Below are positions 33,001-42,000 of a DNA stretch of 64,000 bases, in pieces. Origin of the DNA: an uncultured Nitrospiraceae bacterium (GTDB lineage: Bacteria > Nitrospirota > Thermodesulfovibrionia > Thermodesulfovibrionales > Dissulfurispiraceae); NCBI GenBank assembly GCA_963705105.1, contig CAVPIW010000005.1, forward strand, positions 384,001-448,000, written 5' to 3'. The position numbers were made by a program. Each line of letters starts with the position of its first letter. The first letter of the stretch is position 1.

Positions 33001-36000
33001 TGATGGACCTTCATCTGCAGGCAGTGAATATTTCGAATCTGATTGAAGATGTGGGCTCTCTTTATGCATATGTTGCCGAAGAGAAGAGTATTTCCATTCA
33101 CACCAGTTACCCAAGGGAACTCTACGTGTCCGTCGACCGCAAAAGACTGCAACAGGCCGTGGCAAATCTGCTGGACAATGCCATCAAGTACACGCCAAGC
33201 GGTGGAAAGGTCGATATACGGGCTTCCAAAGAACAGCATGTGATCGTCGTCACCGTAAGGGATACGGGGATCGGCATTCCCCCAGATGAGATCCGGAAGA
33301 TCTGGGATCGTCTGTATCGCGGCGATCGAAGCCGCTCTCAGGAAGGATTCGGCCTTGGCCTGAGCCTGGTGCGGGCGATTGTCCAGGCACACGGCGGCCG
33401 TGTCGAAGTCTTCAGCGAACCCGGCGCCGGCAGTCTTTTCGTCCTCACCCTGCCCGAATAAGAGTACCACCTCTCAAAATCCCGTCTCTCTTCATGAGCG
33501 GTTCTCTTTGTCATTCCCGCGCAGGCGGGAATCCAGGTTTTTTGAGACCTTTCTTGATGCCCGCTCCCCGCCTACCGCCTGCGGGGACAAGTTCCGCGGG
33601 CATGACGGCTTTCACGAGGGGAAGCCGATTCCGAGGTTGTAGTCATTACTCCGGCCCGTTCTCTCACCCGCTTTTGTAACCTTTCACATTTGTAATGCTA
33701 AAGAAAGGGTGCCGCAATCTTCGTCAGCGATAATTATGACATCAAAGAAGTCTGAAGGCGACGCGTCAGGTATTGTCATCAACGGGCCTTGGCGTGCAGC
33801 GGCTTTGAAGGAGGAGAATGCGTGCGACTGCGAGGCCGCTCGCATTCCAGCCTGGGCAGGGCGTTGGGCTGCGAGTGCCCGGCAGGCCTGCTGCCTCGCC
33901 GGGAAGAGGAAGGATGAGCGGGGGCATGAAGCTATTGAGCAAAAAGGAGAGCAAGAGAAGGTTCAGGAAGAAGAGCCCATCTCAGATGAAGAAGCTCCTT
34001 CAGCTAATCCAGAAAGTAAAAGTTCAGCTTGTACGGACAATCGTGGGGGCAGTCAACATATTTGTCATGGCGAAACTCTTTGGTGAACGTTGGACTCTGT
34101 AAGCCCTTTATCAGAGATTTCGGTCTTGGATTGCCGGACGTCAGAATACCATCTTTAGCCGCAGCGTACTGCGGTTTTCGAAACAAAGATTTTCGCCAGC
34201 GCCTTCCGCATTTGCGTCGGAGATAACACACTCGCTGAATGCCATTACATGCACTTTTCTGCTCTGCATTGCAGTGGATTCAAGGCGGTGTTTCTTCGAA
34301 GCATAGCCAGTTTGGACTCTTGTGTTGTCTGTTCAAAGACTTCGCTGTTGTTGAAATCGGCAGGCATCGTGTTTGCAAATGAGAGACATGAAACGGTCTC
34401 ACAGACACTGAGGCCTTCGATTGCTCTTTGATAAAAGCAAACTATCCGTAAGGGTAGGACGCAAAGCCATGGGTCCTTGCAATGAGTTAAGGATCGCCAG
34501 GTTGCCGGAGACGACACTTTGTAGTTCCGTATCTTCAGCCGCATTTCCCAGCGCTTATTCTCCTCACGCGAACAGGCTTTTTTCGCTCGCATCGAGGCTC
34601 CTTAAGGGACGGCCTTTGCCAGACTGGTCCTGACAAAAGCAAACGACCCGTCAGGGTCAGTGATCGCCAGGTTGCCCGACGGTCTCACTCTCACTACTAC
34701 GTCGTCTTTCTCTCACTCTTTCTTAATCTCAAATCGCACAACAGCACTATTTTGTCGAAAGCGCAGCATGAGGGGTTTCTCCTCCGGCACTCCCTTGCCC
34801 GATGAAACCGGTCGGGCAAGAGAAAAGAGATGAGACACAAAGAGGCGGCGATTGCGGCATTCTGCTGTGCCCCCGCAGAGTTCTAAACCGACAAATAATG
34901 ACTAAGGGAGGGATGCGAAGGCGAAAGGTGAACTCAGGAACTGTGTAGAACTATCCGACTATTTTAGGGAGGTTTTTATGAGTATCTCTCGACGTGATTT
35001 TTTGAGATTCTGCGGTCTGTCCGCAGCGGCTGTGGGCTTGTCCGCAACCGATCTAATCCGCTTGGAAGAGGCCCTGGCCAGTCCGACCGCGCCTTCAATC
35101 ATCTGGCTGCAGGGCAGCGGTTGTACCGGGTGTTCCGAATCCTTTCTCAATCTGATATCCGCTTCCGGCCCGCAGACGGCTGCCGACGTATTGATCAATT
35201 CCGTCAATCTGGTTTATCACCCGACCCTCATGGCCCTGGCGGGGCAGGATGCGGTCGCCCAGGCCGTGGCGGCCTACGAAAAGGGCGGGTATCTTCTGGT
35301 TGTGGAAGGCGGCGTTCCGACCGCCTTCGGCGGTAGGGCCTGCTATGCCTGGACGTATAATGAACAGGAGTTCACCTTTGAAGAAACCGTCCTCGGCTTG
35401 GCTGCCAAGGCCGCCGGAATACTGTGCATAGGAACCTGCGCCGCTTGGGGAGGCATCCCTGCGGCTCCGCCCAACCCCGCCGGTGTCGTCGGAGTCAAGG
35501 CATTGACCGGCAGGGACACCATCAACATTCCGGGGTGCCCCACCCATCCCGACTGGATCGCCTGGACCGTGGTGCAACTGTTAACGAATACCCCTATCTC
35601 GGTTGACGGTGACGGACGGCCCACCCAGTTCTTCAGCGCCACCGTCCATGAACTGTGTCCCCGCCGCGGAGGAACGATAGCAACCGACACCATCGGTGTG
35701 GACGGCGCCTGCCTGATGGCTTTGGGCTGCCGTGGTCCGTTTACCATGTCCAATTGTCCCCAACAGAAATGGAATAACCAGGCCAACTGGTGTATCGATG
35801 CGAACGCACCCTGCATCGGATGCACCGAGCCCGGATTTCCGGGGACGGATCCCTTTTATTCCCCCGGTATTTAAATCGTTTAAGGAGGCACATCTATGTC
35901 AACCAAAATATTCATAGATCCCGTAACACGCCTGGAAGGACATCTCAAGATAGCGGTTACGGTCAATGAAGTGCAGGGGCAGCAACAAGTCATCAATGCC

Positions 36001-39000: not shown

Positions 39001-42000
39001 TGACCGGCTACCTGGTCAACGAAAGCGCCACCAAGCCTGCGGCCGGTAACTGGCCCGCTGCGGCCCCCACCAGCTATACCTTTACCACCGCCGGGACCAA
39101 AACCCTCTACGCCTGGGCAAGGGATGCCGCCGGCAATGTCTCCAACAGCCTGAGCCGGCCCGTGACCGTCACCCTGCCTCCGACGGCTGATACCACCCTG
39201 CCGGTGGTCTCGACCTTTACCATCCCGGCCACGGCCACTACCCTGACCGTACCGATCTCCGCCCTGACCGCTACCGACAACGTGGGCGTGACCGGCTACC
39301 TGGTCAACGAAAGCGCCACCAAGCCTGCGGCCGGCAACTGGCCCGCTGCGGCCCCCACCAGCTATACCTTTACCACCGCCGGGGCCAAAACCCTCTACGC
39401 TGGCAGGGATGCCGCCGGCAATGTCTCCAACGCCCTGAGCCGGTCCGTGACCGTTACTTCCGGCGACAGCGGCGGGGTCGATGTGGAATCTCCCGAGGTC
39501 ATGGAATTTACCTTGCCCCTGACCGGCACTTCTCTCACCGTGCCGATCATGGCCTTCCGGGCCATTGATAACATCAGCCCGACCGCTTATCTGATCACTA
39601 CCACCCCGACAGCGCCGTCGGCAAGCGATCCAGGCTGGAGAGCCACCCCGCCGACCAGCTACACCTTTACCTCCGCGGGCGCCAAAACACTGTACGGGTG
39701 GGCTAAGGATGCCGCCGGCAACGTCTCGGAAAGTGTTTGGGACAACGTGGGCATCACCGCACCGCCCCAGACAACTTCGTACACGCTGAGCGTGTCCAGA
39801 GCGGGAACAGGCTCTGGCACCGTGACGAGCGCCCCAGCCGGCGTGAGCTGTGGCACTGACTGCTCCCAGACCTATGCAGCAGGGACCCAAGTGAGCCTCA
39901 CCGCTGCGGCGTCGCCCGGTTCTGTTTTCTCCGGCTGGTCCGGGGCTTGCACAGGACCAGGGACCTGCACGGTGACGTTGAGCGCCGCCCGCTCGGTGAC
40001 GGCGACCTTCAACACCGCGCCGGCGGGATCGGCGCCTAACATTTCCGCTCCGTCCTCCTACAGCTTTGGGGAGACGCATTTGGACTCCACAAGCAGTCGC
40101 ACCATTGTGGTCAGCAACACCGGCTCGACCACGCTCCGGGTGACGGGTATTACGAAGAGCGGTACCGACGCCGGGATGTTCACAGTAGGGGTCAGCTCCT
40201 TCACTGTTGCGCCTGGAGGGACCTACAACCTCCCGGTAACCTTTAGACCAACCTCCGAAGGCACGAAGAACGCGACCCTGAGGCTCTCCACGAACGATCC
40301 TGACACAGCGGTCTGGCAGATCAGTCTGTCCGGCAGGGGAGAGGATTAGTTCAGTCAAACCGCGTTTTTTCTGCGGGGCGGCCGTCTGATCCTTATGCCG
40401 GCTCACAGGCGGGCGGAGAGAGACACCCTCTCTCCACCCGCCTCTTTTTCGTGCGCCGAAGCTCCCTCCCGGGGGATCACTCCCTGTAAATAAAGGGTAA
40501 ATAAAGGGGACAGCGATCGGGCGCAGTTGCAATTGCTCGTGTCGGTGGAGCGGTTTTTCAGGCAAGCGGCATCCGGGCCAACCGCCCCGTCCATTCTAAC
40601 ACCTATTTCTTAAAGTACTCCGGGGTGCCGGTGGCCGTCATTTTTGAAGGCCTGTTTGCTCACTTTTAAACGGTGGACCCGGACTCCAGGTCTTTCGCCG
40701 TTCAGCCCGTGCCTGGCATGACCTTGCTGTAATCATACTGGTCGCCGTGGCAGGATGCGCAGGTGTCCTTCGCAACGACGGTTTTGATCTTCTTGCCCTT
40801 GTGAGGCATACTGCAATCATACAACACGGACCTCATTGTTGAAATTTGCTTCACTGGATGTACTCCTGGTATTGCTGGTGGTGTTTGCCTGAGTCGTAGT
40901 AGCCCGTCTTCTTTGCCAAGTCATCGAGGATGAAGATGCACTACAGGTCACCCGTGTATTCCTTTCGAAAGGGTAATCCCGTACGCCGGTGGCATGCCAT
41001 CTTCGGGTAGCAGGTCCCGTCATCCCAGGCTTGAAATCCCGATTCTGGTGCGCGGGAAAGTACGAGCCGCTGCCCTCGCAGGCCACTGTTAGTGTTGTCG
41101 ACATGGGAAGGCCGCAGGGGTCGCTGGACGAGCCAGCAGACCGTGCCTGGGCTGACGACCTCGGCTCCGGGTCCGTGGCAGGCCTCGCAGCCCGTGTTCT
41201 CTTCGATCCACGTTGCCTTCTGTACTTTCATCGCGGCGTCATCTCCATAAGACGCTATCCCGGGCGTGAGGTGAGGCACATGAAGTCCCAGTCGTTCTTC
41301 AGGGAGTTTTCCCATTTGCCCGACACCCGGTTGAACTGCTTGTCCATGAACTGGTGATTTCCCGTCTCGTCGTTCTTCACAAGATAACGCTGCTTCCAGA
41401 ATGAGCCGACGACATAGACGATGGGGATTTTTCTTTTTCAGGACATGGCGGCAGACAAACCTTATCATTGCAATAGGACATCCGAAAAGGCAAAGGCATG
41501 ATCATCCTCGTCATCGGCGGCGCCAAGAGCGGCAAGAGCGCCTTTGCCCTCAGACGGGCCGAATCGTTTGAAGGGCGGAAGGCCTACGTCGCCACTGCCG
41601 AACCCCTCGACGACGAGATGAGACTGAGGATCGACAGCCACAGGCTTCAGCGGGGGCCGGACTGGGACACGATCGAGGTGCCGCTGAAGGTAGCCGAGGT
41701 GCTCGACGGGGCTGACGGCAGCCACGGGGCGCTCCTCATCGACTGCCTGACCCTCTGGGTCTCGAATCTCCTCATGAGGGAACAGGACAACGTCGATCCC
41801 GAGTGCGAAATGGAGCGTTTTCTTGAATCGCTCGTCGCCGTCCGCGACAGGGTCGCCACGGCGGTCCTGATTGTGACGAACGAGGTCGGCATGGGCATCG
41901 TCCCCGACAACCCCCTGTCGCGCAGGTTCAGGGATCTTGCGGGACGGCTCAACCAGGCCGTTGCCGAAGTGGCCGACGAAGTCTACTGCGTGATGGCGGG

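What a model noticed while it worked through the whole genome (the two positions that open the first line are those of the whole stretch)
34426..40349. GEMM-I cyclic-dinucleotide riboswitch aptamers in the leaders of both periplasmic [NiFe] hydrogenase operons
Two paralogous operons each encode a Tat-exported [NiFe] hydrogenase and end with a secreted protein whose N-terminus has a CxxCH haem motif and a DSDGDG loop: C5:418978-424349(+) (g00547-g00550) and C16:7824-11520(-) (g03666-g03664). Each has a c-di-GMP-I (GEMM-I) aptamer on the same strand, 469 nt (C5:418426-418509) and 526 nt (C16:12046-12128) upstream of the small-subunit start. No gene lies between, and a T-run follows the aptamer. 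This suggests second-messenger control of H2 uptake, which is not among the described GEMM regulons.
Evidence so far: rna.tsv rows. cmscan gives 63.5 and 62.7 bits, both over gathering. The leader sequences have no ORF, and the C5 leader holds a second degenerate aptamer-like copy. The large subunits are 39% identical, and the last genes share the haem N-terminal domain. 0 of 21 loci of the closest small-subunit homologues from other genomes have any Rfam hit. The closest relatives of the C5 operon (about 80% identity) are Desulfobacterota bins, 4 of which also encode the haem-motif protein. Only 1 of 40 other genomes of the genome's own order has a close small subunit. Three more aptamers of the GGC variant precede g01600, g02446 and the CHASE2 cyclase g02561.
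(Added by a program. Inside this text positions count along the whole contig: contig position 384,001 is position 1 of the stretch shown here. "Call 12" and the like, gene names such as g00115 and contig names such as C1 are that model's own, and its searches are not shown. The text may have been shortened before it was handed on; [...] marks where a part breaks off. The agent that wrote the report below was given it as the finding of a first reader that could run no searches.)

Follow-up and report, generated by a model that had tools for sequence, protein, structure and literature searches.

The report
Riboswitches upstream of two hydrogenase operons
Two RNA sensors for bacterial cyclic-dinucleotide signals sit at the start of the long leaders of two hydrogen-oxidising enzyme operons, so this bacterium probably ties hydrogen use to its "settle on a surface" signal, although no expression data exist yet.

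Summary
A full-length GEMM-I aptamer lies at window 34427-34510 (+), scoring 63.5 bits on RF03167 and 68.8 on RF01051. It sits 467 nt before a Tat-exported [NiFe] hydrogenase operon: small subunit, large subunit, protease and a 798-aa secreted haem-motif protein. A paralogous operon on contig C16 has its own aptamer (62.7 bits) 525 nt upstream.

New here:
- Both aptamers lie 32-48 nt downstream of a sigma-54-type -24/-12 motif. None of 11 other aptamer upstream regions has one, and relatives of the C5 hydrogenase also carry such motifs before long leaders.
- The C16 leader folds into a terminator whose 5' arm lies inside the aptamer, which is an ON-switch design.
- The C5 leader has no canonical terminator. 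It has only a U6 run, a truncated second aptamer copy and a C-rich, G-poor tract.
- The C5 aptamer has A at the G20 position, the cGAMP or bispecific signature. C16 has G.
- The genome lacks the Ser-type (Hypr) GGDEF cyclase found in 100 of 150 genomes of its order.
- No aptamer was found at 103 homologous hydrogenase loci elsewhere, so the link is lineage-specific on acquired operons.

Verdict: real riboswitches, with control of the hydrogenases likely (about 0.6) but unproven.

The parts
33513..33541 (+). Terminator-like hairpin plus T-run that ends the upstream response-regulator and histidine-kinase unit (31361-33461).
   Evidence: One search found an 8-bp stem with 5 GC pairs followed by a T-run. 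Searches identify the kinase and regulator.
34362..34377 (+). Sigma-54-type -24/-12 promoter-like motif (AGGCAT-N5-TTGCA), 48 nt before the aptamer. This is the likely start of the leader transcript (inferred).
   Evidence: score it 9 of 11 against the consensus with the GG and GC cores. Only 1.3% of random 150-nt genome windows reach 9. rpoN is present. The consensus itself is recalled.
34427..34510 (+). GEMM-I (c-di-GMP-I clan) aptamer with P1, P1a carrying a GUAA tetraloop, and P1b. Nucleotide 34436 is A at the position equivalent to G20 of the Vibrio reference.
   Evidence: 63.5 bits, alignment shown; 68.8 bits; alignment; covariation across 13 aptamers.
34579..34584 (+). U6 run 68 nt after the aptamer with no GC-rich hairpin directly before it. 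In the MFE fold it pairs with the A-rich 5' junction of the aptamer (AAAAGC with GCUUUU).
   Evidence: No terminator-like site was found on the + strand in 34511-34977.
34628..34683 (+). Truncated second aptamer copy. The 5' part with the P1a hairpin (with compensatory changes) and the 3' strand are kept, and about 30 nt including the P1b 5' strand are lost. It is probably a decayed tandem partner.
   Evidence: 17.6 bits; direct repeats D1 at 85% and D3 at 94%.
34667..34770 (+). C-rich, G-poor tract with peak C/G of 3.25 at 34680-34757. It is rut-like, so a possible Rho-dependent attenuation site (speculative).
   Evidence: the genome's 99th percentile for C/G is 2.58. rho is present.
34791..34823 (+). 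Stable hairpin in the leader (12-nt arms, 92% complementary) with no U-run after it.
   Evidence: (inverted repeat I3).
34966..34980 (+). Shine-Dalgarno sequence AGGGAGG and the ATG of the small subunit.
34978..35874 (+). [NiFe] hydrogenase small subunit, 298 aa, with a Tat signal (SRRDFLRF) and no C-terminal membrane anchor.
35896..37329 (+). [NiFe] hydrogenase large subunit, 477 aa. Its closest solved relatives are periplasmic [NiFeSe] enzymes, but it has Cys where they have selenocysteine (DPCLACAVH).
   Evidence: (5jsu_B, E 8e-131).
37363..37956 (+). Hydrogenase maturation endopeptidase.
   Evidence: HycI; TIGR00072.
37953..40349 (+). Secreted 798-aa protein. It has a signal peptide, an approximately 90-aa N-terminal domain with CxxCH and a DSDGDG loop, 3.9 near-identical 96-aa repeats (38322-39454), an InlB-B-like domain and an ASH / choice-of-anchor-D Ig-like domain. 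I infer it is the redox partner or surface scaffold.

Best explanation
Each of the two operons is transcribed from a sigma-54-type promoter into a leader of about 0.6 kb. The first structured element of that leader is a GEMM-I cyclic-dinucleotide aptamer.

In the C16 leader the aptamer and an intrinsic terminator are mutually exclusive, because the terminator's 5' arm is the 3' strand of P1a plus the junction. Ligand binding (c-di-GMP, from the G20/A47/C92 site) should therefore let RNA polymerase read through into the hydrogenase genes. That is an ON switch.

The C5 (window) aptamer is equally intact but has A at the G20 position. It should therefore accept 3'3'-cGAMP, or bind c-di-GMP less tightly. 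How it couples to expression is unresolved. Candidates are a weak U6-linked alternative helix or Rho-dependent attenuation at a C-rich tract.

The outcome would be that two horizontally acquired, soluble periplasmic hydrogenases, each co-encoded with a secreted haem-motif Ig-domain protein, are made only when an enhancer-binding protein fires the promoter and the second messenger is high.

What is shown: the aptamers, their binding-site nucleotides, the C16 alternative fold, the promoter-like motifs and the gene content. What is inferred: co-transcription, the direction of switching, the ligand of the C5 aptamer and the role of the haem protein.
For: - Aptamer quality. Scores are above Rfam gathering. 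All five P1a loops are GNRA tetraloops. Across 13 aptamers, 94.2% of cells pair and 13 of 20 pairs show compensatory change, a level reached by 0 of 500 shuffles (the alignment was fitted to the model).
- Non-random placement. Two of the five strong aptamers in the genome precede the only two operons of this type.
- Promoter. Sigma-54-like motifs lie 48 and 32 nt before the two aptamers, scoring 9 and 10 of 11. Such scores are reached by 1.3% and 0.1% of 5000 random 150-nt windows. The 11 other aptamer upstream regions score 8 or less. rpoN is present. Seven of 17 relatives of the C5 operon have a motif scoring 9 or more within 700 nt upstream, and in the 80% group it lies 327-498 nt from the ATG, so long sigma-54 leaders are native to this hydrogenase family.
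- No internal promoter. No sigma-70-like site was found in 33400-35100 or on the coding strand of the C16 leader. No other sigma-54 hit scoring 9 or more lies in C5:417000-419100.
- Nothing else in the leaders. There is no Pfam family for the leader ORFs and no other Rfam family.
- C16 platform. The MFE fold (-64.9 kcal/mol) has a 13-bp helix between the aptamer interior and a segment ending in a U-run, against -49.8 with the aptamer enforced. This is the same logic as the Geobacter pilM ON switch (PMC9262584, passages).
- Ligand site. C5 has A and the other four have G at the G20 column, and all have A and C at the other two contact columns. G20A makes the Vibrio aptamer bispecific, with Kd 53 nM for c-di-GMP and 120 nM for cGAMP (PMC6140456, passages).
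Against: - No transcript data exist, because no RNA run is listed.
- The leaders (467 and 525 nt) are far longer than those of the other aptamers in this genome (50-206 nt).
- The C5 leader has no canonical terminator, and its fold energy is no better than shuffles (z -0.05).
- The C16 leader has a second terminator-like hairpin with a T-run about 135 nt before the ATG. That could stop read-through and would imply a further promoter.
- The -12 element of the C16 motif reads GT rather than GC.
- No enhancer-binding protein gene is adjacent.
- The aptamer is missing from all 103 related hydrogenase loci searched, including relatives that are 80% identical.
- A metagenome contig about 93% identical from the ATG onward has 462 upstream bases that do not lie on this leader at 80% likeness.
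- No Ser-type GGDEF of the canonical kind and no SMODS-type cyclase was found in the 99.4%-complete genome. A cGAMP ligand for the C5 aptamer therefore lacks a known source.
Confidence: 0.6

Rival explanations
1. The aptamers are functional riboswitches, but they gate only a short leader RNA (or an RNA with a role of its own). The hydrogenase operons would then be driven by separate, unrecognised promoters inside the 0.5-kb leaders.
For: - The distances are 467 and 525 nt, against 50-206 nt for the other aptamers.
- The C16 leader has a second terminator-like hairpin about 135 nt before the ATG.
- The link is not conserved at 103 related loci.
- My promoter scans cover only the sigma-70 and sigma-54 consensus.
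Against: - No promoter-like site was found in either leader.
- No gene or known RNA lies between aptamer and operon.
- The same layout occurs twice, at the only two operons of this kind.
- Close relatives of the C5 operon also have sigma-54-like motifs 327-498 nt upstream, so long leaders are normal for it.
Confidence: 0.22
2. The C5 (window) aptamer is an orphan or decaying element. It would be a cGAMP-type aptamer left without its ligand after the family lost the Hypr cyclase, so the leader now sits in one constitutive state. The C16 switch may still work.
For: - C5 has A at the G20 position.
- The Ser-type GAF-GGDEF is found in 100 of 150 other genomes of the order, and all 30 checked have Ser plus GGDEF. 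It is found in 0 of 15 members of the own family and not in this genome.
- No SMODS cyclase was found.
- The tandem partner has already decayed.
- No terminator is recognisable.
Against: - The aptamer is complete and scores as well as the others (63.5 to 68.8 bits), with every paired region intact.
- G20A aptamers bind c-di-GMP at 53 nM (PMC6140456), and the genome has at least nine canonical GGDEF cyclases.
- A divergent HAMP plus GGDEF-like protein with Ser and GGDDF exists at C8:45792-47183.
Confidence: 0.13
3. The matches are chance similarities or misassembled sequence, not riboswitches.
For: None beyond the fact that the genome is a 19-contig draft.
Against: - E-values run from 1e-12 to 4e-13 over the full model length.
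- Covariation supports the structure.
- An independent public run holds identical contigs across 34000-34620.
Confidence: 0.01

Closest known systems
Geobacter GEMM-Ib (3'3'-cGAMP) riboswitches, for example before pilM, pgcA and omcAHG
   Same: - They share the GEMM-I fold with A at the G20 position, as the C5 aptamer has.
- They use ON-type control in which the terminator and the aptamer exclude each other, as in the C16 leader.
- Tandem copies occur.
- Their targets are extracytoplasmic redox and surface proteins.

Sources: PMC6456294, PMC6140456 and PMC9262584, passages read.
   Different: - The target here is a periplasmic hydrogenase operon.
- The genome lacks the Hypr GGDEF cyclase that feeds the Geobacter switches.
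- The leader is about 0.5 kb long.
- The C5 expression platform is not recognisable.
Canonical c-di-GMP-I riboswitches (Vibrio Vc2, Clostridioides Cd1; Rfam RF01051)
   Same: The C16 aptamer has the same three helices, a GNRA tetraloop and the G/A/C ligand-contact nucleotides.
   Different: Cd1 is an OFF switch before flagellar genes (PMC9262584). C16 looks like an ON switch, and the downstream genes are hydrogenase subunits.
Soluble periplasmic hydrogenases of sulfate reducers: the [NiFeSe] Hys type and the [NiFe] Hyn type
   Same: - All are Tat-exported small plus large subunit enzymes without a membrane anchor.
- The C5 large subunit is closest to [NiFeSe] structures (5jsu_B, E 8e-131).
- The C16 large subunit is closest to Desulfovibrio [NiFe] structures (1h2a_L, E 2e-195).

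That such enzymes pass electrons to periplasmic c-type cytochromes is recalled knowledge.
   Different: - C5 has Cys, not selenocysteine.
- The co-encoded partner is a one-CxxCH domain fused to Ig-like surface-protein domains. It is not a tetrahaem cytochrome c3.
- Regulation by a riboswitch has not been described, as far as my searches reach.
Sigma-54 promoters of uptake-hydrogenase operons (HoxA/HupR-type activation; recalled knowledge)
   Same: -24/-12-like motifs lie before the C5 and C16 leaders and before 7 of 17 related operons.
   Different: Here an aptamer is inserted directly downstream of the promoter. No activator gene is adjacent.

Membership tests
GEMM-I / c-di-GMP-I riboswitch clan (RF01051, RF03167) | Score above the curated Rfam gathering threshold over the full model. 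| tested here: met
   C5 scores 63.5 bits against 59 on RF03167 and 68.8 against 35 on RF01051. C16 scores 62.7 against 35.
GEMM-I / c-di-GMP-I riboswitch clan (RF01051, RF03167) | P1, P1a and P1b helices kept by compensatory changes, with a GNRA tetraloop on P1a. | tested here: met
   94.2% of cells pair and 13 of 20 pairs change on both sides, reached by 0 of 500 shuffles; slid controls pair at 49% or less (model-fitted alignment). The loops are GUAA, GCAA (three times) and GUGA.
GEMM-I / c-di-GMP-I riboswitch clan (RF01051, RF03167) | Ligand-contact nucleotides G20, A47 and C92 (Vibrio numbering, per PMC6140456). | tested here: inconclusive
   C16 has G, A and C. C5 has A, A and C: nucleotide 34436 is A. 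The feature is therefore met for C16 but not for the c-di-GMP-specific form in C5.
GEMM-I / c-di-GMP-I riboswitch clan (RF01051, RF03167) | An expression platform that competes with the aptamer. | tested here: inconclusive
   C16 has a 13-bp terminator-like helix that uses the aptamer interior, followed by a U-run. C5 has no canonical terminator.
GEMM-I / c-di-GMP-I riboswitch clan (RF01051, RF03167) | Binding of a cyclic dinucleotide. | not testable with these tools
   This needs in-line probing or ITC.
GEMM-Ib (cGAMP-selective subclass) | Adenine at the G20-equivalent position. | tested here: met
   The C5 aptamer has A. The truncated copy also has A there.
GEMM-Ib (cGAMP-selective subclass) | A cGAMP synthase in the same genome (a Hypr GGDEF with Ser plus GGDEF, or a DncV-like cyclase). 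| tested here: not met
   All 9 canonical GGDEF domains have Asp. There is no SMODS match, and the order's Ser-type GAF-GGDEF was not found. One caveat is a divergent GGDEF-like protein with Ser and GGDDF. The genome is 99.4% complete, not closed.
Group 1 periplasmic [NiFe] hydrogenase | N- and C-terminal Cys motifs of the large subunit, and a Tat signal on the small subunit. | tested here: met
   The large subunit has RICGVC and DPCLACAVH. The small subunit has SRRDFLRF and matches TIGR01409.
[NiFeSe] hydrogenase (Hys) | Selenocysteine (in-frame TGA) in the C-terminal motif. | tested here: not met
   The motif has Cys, with no internal stop. The NCBIfam HysA and HysB models score below their cut-offs.
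Sigma-54 promoter | GG at -24 and GC at -12 with 10 nt between them, and rpoN in the genome. | tested here: inconclusive
   C5 meets it (AGGCAT-N5-TTGCA). In C16 the -12 dinucleotide is GT. rpoN is present. No start site or activator is known, and the consensus is recalled.

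The most novel reading that the evidence does not exclude
A bacterium took up two different soluble hydrogenase operons from other lineages and wired each behind a resident cyclic-dinucleotide riboswitch. 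The two aptamers differ at the one nucleotide that sets ligand choice (G against A). The two enzymes would therefore be switched on at different second-messenger identities or thresholds, together with a secreted haem-plus-Ig-domain protein. That would make H2 oxidation part of a surface-attached, possibly extracellular-electron-transfer, programme. It would be the first riboswitch-controlled hydrogenase and an example of regulatory capture of foreign energy genes by an RNA sensor.
Probability: 0.2. Interest if true: 0.75.

Novelty: new member of a known kind. Interest (0 to 1): 0.5.

Why it matters
Known GEMM-I regulons cover motility, adhesion, pili, polysaccharides and, in Geobacter, outer cytochromes. 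A hydrogenase operon behind such a switch would link a core energy-conserving enzyme directly to the sessile-versus-free lifestyle signal. That matters for syntrophic H2 transfer, sediment biofilms and metal corrosion.

The pair of aptamers differs only at the specificity nucleotide, in a genome without the usual cGAMP cyclase. This gives a natural test of whether A20 aptamers serve as low-affinity c-di-GMP sensors.

The case also shows how acquired operons can be brought under host control by placing a resident RNA sensor behind the operon's native type of promoter.

Tried and rejected
- Expression data. The look-up of sequencing runs listed no RNA holder. Laying four DNA runs gave only fragmentary contigs. 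These confirm the sequence in one run and show one roughly 93%-identical relative with an unalignable upstream part, but they give no transcript information.
- Weak model hits. The hits in L050 (18.6 bits, 4.8 kb upstream), L029, L119 (14.1 bits) and L097 were rejected. L050, L119, L185, L013 and L009 have no Rfam match at gathering.
- Other RNA families in the leaders: none at E<=1 apart from one chance snoRNA row.
- Long-range pairings in the C5 leader. Examples are UGCCGGAG at the aptamer 3' end with CUCCGGCA at 34782-34789, and the copy-2 tail with the hairpin at 34811-34819. They are no more than the few 8-mers expected by chance in 600 nt, so I build nothing on them.
- Fold of the haem-motif domain. 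The model has pLDDT 81.6. It has no Foldseek match at E<=0.001, and the best Z is 2.6 against 48,161 chains.
- Near-length homologues of the C16 last protein: only 5 were found.
- Taxon name.
- Literature. Kellenberger et al. 2015 (PMC4418906) is not held, and Nelson et al. 2015 was not found as a held paper. Their riboswitch gene lists could not be checked.
- The meaning of the name 'GGC' in RF03167 could not be verified.
- I ran no complex prediction for the hydrogenase and the haem protein. The partner role is stated as inference only.

Full report
**1. The observation**

cmscan over the whole 64-kb window gives one match at gathering level. It is a full-length c-di-GMP-I-clan aptamer at 34427-34510 (+): RF03167, 63.5 bits against a gathering score of 59, E 1.2e-12. 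With RF01051 the same place scores 68.8 bits, and the genome holds six matches in all:
- this one;
- C16:12046-12128 (-), 62.7 bits;
- three further strong ones (C6:895006, C9:210804, C9:357815);
- one weak one of 31 bits (C6:923307).

cmscan files the three further ones, and the window's own aptamer, under RF03167. It files the C16 aptamer under RF01051.

Thirteen aptamers from this genome and its relatives were aligned to my own covariance model R1. On that alignment 94.2% of cells form pairs and 13 of 20 pairs show changes on both sides, a level reached by 0 of 500 shuffles. Slid controls pair at 49% or less. The alignment is fitted to the model, which favours the structure.

**2. The operons**

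The window operon contains four genes:
- a small subunit (34978-35874) with a Tat signal and no membrane anchor;
- a large subunit (35896-37329, 477 aa) with RICGVC and DPCLACAVH;
- a maturation protease (37363-37956);
- a 798-aa secreted protein (37953-40349).

These rest.

The C16 operon has a small subunit, a large subunit (547 aa) and a 298-aa secreted protein whose ATG overlaps the large-subunit stop. It has no protease.

The C5 large subunit is closest to solved periplasmic [NiFeSe] enzymes but has Cys at the selenocysteine position. The C16 large subunit is closest to Desulfovibrio periplasmic [NiFe] enzymes. The subunits are 36% (small) and 39% (large) identical between the two operons. 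A third, anchor-bearing hydrogenase at C10:53878 is the type shared with relatives and has no aptamer.

**3. The last genes**

The two last genes share an N-terminal domain of about 90 aa (39% identity over 109 aa). They also share a C-terminal InlB-B-like domain plus an ASH / choice-of-anchor-D module (58% over 193 aa). The window's copy has in addition 3.9 tandem repeats of 288 nt that match at 97%.

The N-terminal domain has 864 representatives at E<=1e-3 in 1.84 billion proteins. It nearly always sits just after a signal peptide, on proteins of 100 to 1400 aa. Of the 149 best hits, 137 have both CxxCH and DxDxDG. In 24 aligned sequences the invariant residues are Y17, C33, C36, H37, E63, D66, D68, D70, G71, E77 and P84.

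Pfam has no family for this domain. NCBIfam gives only a sub-threshold match to a 'GEGP dihaem' model. A model with pLDDT 81.6 has no structural match. I infer, and have not shown, that it binds one haem and takes electrons from the hydrogenase. This rests on recalled knowledge that such soluble hydrogenases use periplasmic c-type cytochromes.

**4. Is the aptamer part of the hydrogenase transcript?**

For:
- The upstream kinase gene ends with a terminator-like hairpin at 33513.
- A -24/-12 motif, AGGCAT-N5-TTGCA, lies at 34362-34377, 48 nt before the aptamer. The C16 aptamer is preceded at 32 nt by TGGCAC-N5-TTGTA.
- These motifs score 9 and 10 of 11 against the (recalled) consensus. Such scores are reached by 1.3% and 0.1% of 5000 random 150-nt windows of this genome. 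None of the 11 other aptamer upstream regions examined exceeds 8.
- rpoN is present.
- Relatives of the C5 operon have such motifs too, in 7 of 17 upstream regions of 700 nt. In the 80%-identical group they lie 327-498 nt before the ATG, so a long sigma-54 leader is native to this hydrogenase family.
- No sigma-70-like site was found in 33400-35100 or on the coding strand of the C16 leader.
- Leader ORFs hit no Pfam family, and no other Rfam family matches.

Against:
- The leaders are 467 and 525 nt, against 50-206 nt for the genome's other aptamers.
- The C16 leader has a second terminator-like hairpin about 135 nt before the ATG.
- No activator gene is adjacent.
- There are no RNA data.

**5. 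Expression platforms**

In C16 the unconstrained fold (-64.9 kcal/mol) pairs AAAGGGCGCAAAG, which is the 3' strand of P1a plus the junction, with a segment about 40 nt downstream of the aptamer. That segment ends in a U-run. With the aptamer enforced the energy is -49.8. Aptamer and terminator therefore exclude each other. This is the design described for the Geobacter pilM ON switch (PMC9262584, passages).

In the window's leader nothing comparable exists:
- The U6 run at 34579-34584 has no GC hairpin before it.
- The MFE fold (-53.6, against -48.0 with the aptamer enforced) closes with a weak AAAAGC/GCUUUU helix.
- The fold energy of the region equals that of shuffles.
- At 34628-34683 lies a truncated copy of the aptamer. 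Its P1a is kept with compensatory changes, its 3' strand is 94% identical and about 30 nt are deleted. It is most simply a decayed tandem partner.
- A C-rich, G-poor tract (C/G 3.25 at 34680-34757, against a genome 99th percentile of 2.58) could serve Rho, which the genome encodes. This is a lead, not a finding.

**6. Ligand**

At the column that corresponds to G20 of the Vibrio aptamer, the window's aptamer has A (nt 34436) and the other four have G. The A47 and C92 columns are canonical in all five.

G20-to-A is the hallmark of the cGAMP-sensing GEMM-Ib class. The G20A Vibrio mutant binds c-di-GMP at 53 nM and cGAMP at 120 nM (PMC6140456, passages).

Hypr cyclases that make cGAMP have Ser in place of Asp at the base-reading position and keep GGDEF (PMC6456294, passages).

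In this genome:
- All nine canonical GGDEF domains have Asp.
- There is no SMODS match.
- The only Ser is in a divergent HAMP plus GGDEF-like protein with GGDDF.

In the wider order:
- Two relatives whose aptamers have A at this column (G025, G029) each encode a GAF-GGDEF with Ser plus GGDEF.
- Its orthologue is found in 100 of 150 other genomes of the order, and all 30 checked have Ser plus GGDEF.
- It is found in 0 of 15 genomes of the own family, 0 of 15 of family f4 and 0 of 14 of family f10, and not in this genome.

The window's aptamer is therefore either a lower-affinity c-di-GMP sensor, a cGAMP sensor with an unknown source of ligand, or an orphan.

**7. Distribution**

With model R1, which finds the relatives' aptamers at 46-67 bits, no aptamer was found at:
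- 44 loci of C5-type small subunits from named genomes, of which 39 have at least 700 nt upstream;
- 29 loci of the standard hydrogenase in 400 genomes of the phylum;
- 29 metagenome loci of C16-type relatives, of which 18 have at least 700 nt upstream;
- the one C5-type locus in the order.

The C5-type operon is foreign to the order. It occurs in 1 of 150 other genomes, at 59% identity, while MAGs titled delta proteobacterium or Thermodesulfobacteriota reach 80%. The C16 small subunit has no relative above 54% in the phylum sample or 66% in metagenomes.

The two aptamers resemble each other (78% over 73 nt) and aptamers of relatives in the order (85% over 47 nt to G025). The leader itself matches nothing in the 80% relatives. 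The simplest history is that acquired operons were placed under a resident type of riboswitch.

**8. Literature**

Three full-text searches returned 1, 3 and 3 papers, five distinct papers in all:
- riboswitch + cGAMP + Geobacter + hydrogenase;
- 'c-di-GMP riboswitch' + hydrogenase;
- GEMM + riboswitch + hydrogenase + c-di-GMP.

In the two whose passages I read (PMC13194489, PMC9481103), hydrogenase is mentioned in other contexts. I saw PMC11509735 and PMC10599522 only as listings. The two founding Geobacter papers are not held. The link is therefore 'not found in print' only within these limits.

**9. Verdict**

The aptamers are real, with confidence about 0.97. I rate at about 0.6 that they gate the hydrogenase operons. 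This is stronger for C16, where the ON-switch design is visible, than for the window's C5 copy. The find is a new member of a known riboswitch class with an unusual target. It is lineage-specific and is testable with standard assays.

Noticed in passing
L136:592-1989 (G025), L125:604-1995 (G029), L152-L181: A GAF-GGDEF protein of about 465 aa with Ser plus GGDEF (the Hypr, cGAMP-synthase signature) is found in 100 of 150 other genomes of the order, and all 30 checked have the signature. It was not found in three families: the own family f1 (0 of 15), f4 (0 of 15) and f10 (0 of 14). Aptamers with A at the G20 position occur in G025 and G029. This suggests widespread cGAMP signalling in the order, with family-level loss.
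   Followed up: partly
window 38040-38330, with relatives P0008-P0157: The N-terminal domain of about 90 aa with CxxCH and a DxDxDG loop is a large family with no Pfam model (864 representatives). It heads secreted proteins of very varied architecture, and no structural match was found for the model.
   Followed up: partly
G000:C16:6071-7791 (+), L061:72-1792: A further gene with the haem-motif N-domain and CHRD-like repeats converges on the end of the C16 hydrogenase operon. Its signal peptide plus CxxCH and its DSDGDG part lie in different frames, so it carries a frameshift or an assembly error.
   Followed up: no
G000:C6:about 773100-775600 (+): This is a fourth paralogue of the haem-motif domain. 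It is followed by the same kind of 96-aa repeat as in the window's 798-aa protein, then FN3-like and CHRD-like parts. No aptamer lies upstream.
   Followed up: no
window 38322-39454: There are 3.9 tandem copies of a 288-nt unit that match at 97% inside the 798-aa gene. The fourth protein repeat lacks two residues (YAGRD instead of YAWARD).
   Followed up: no
L006:916-1119 (-) = G000:C6:922722-922925: A cobalamin riboswitch (78 bits) lies about 380 nt from the weak sixth GEMM-I match, on the opposite strand.
   Followed up: no
L052:1710-2045 and L057:1870-2184 (reverse-complement coordinates): In relatives G025 and G037, GEMM-I aptamers precede small Cys-rich proteins that share the motif NCWEF(K/R)KCGRE...GVCPA. 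One of these aptamers has A at the G20 position.
   Followed up: no
L007, L009 and L010, about 250-500 nt upstream of position 6001: The 80%-identical hydrogenase operons of three MAGs have two sigma-54-like motifs (TGGC..-N-TTGCT and TGGTAT-N5-TTGCT) in AT-rich leaders that are 69-74% identical to each other and unrelated to the window's leader.
   Followed up: partly
window 34978-36200, against run X2 record 10: A 1712-nt metagenome contig matches from the small-subunit ATG onward with 82 differences. Its 462 upstream bases do not lie on this leader at 80% likeness. A close relative therefore has a different leader, with the break at or near the start codon.
   Followed up: no
window 40941-43161 (-): Three minus-strand ORFs (175, 194 and 306 aa) between the hydrogenase operon and the cobalamin-synthesis genes (42271-49818) have no Pfam family. 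The 306-aa ORF overlaps the cobT-like + strand ORF, so it may be spurious.
   Followed up: no
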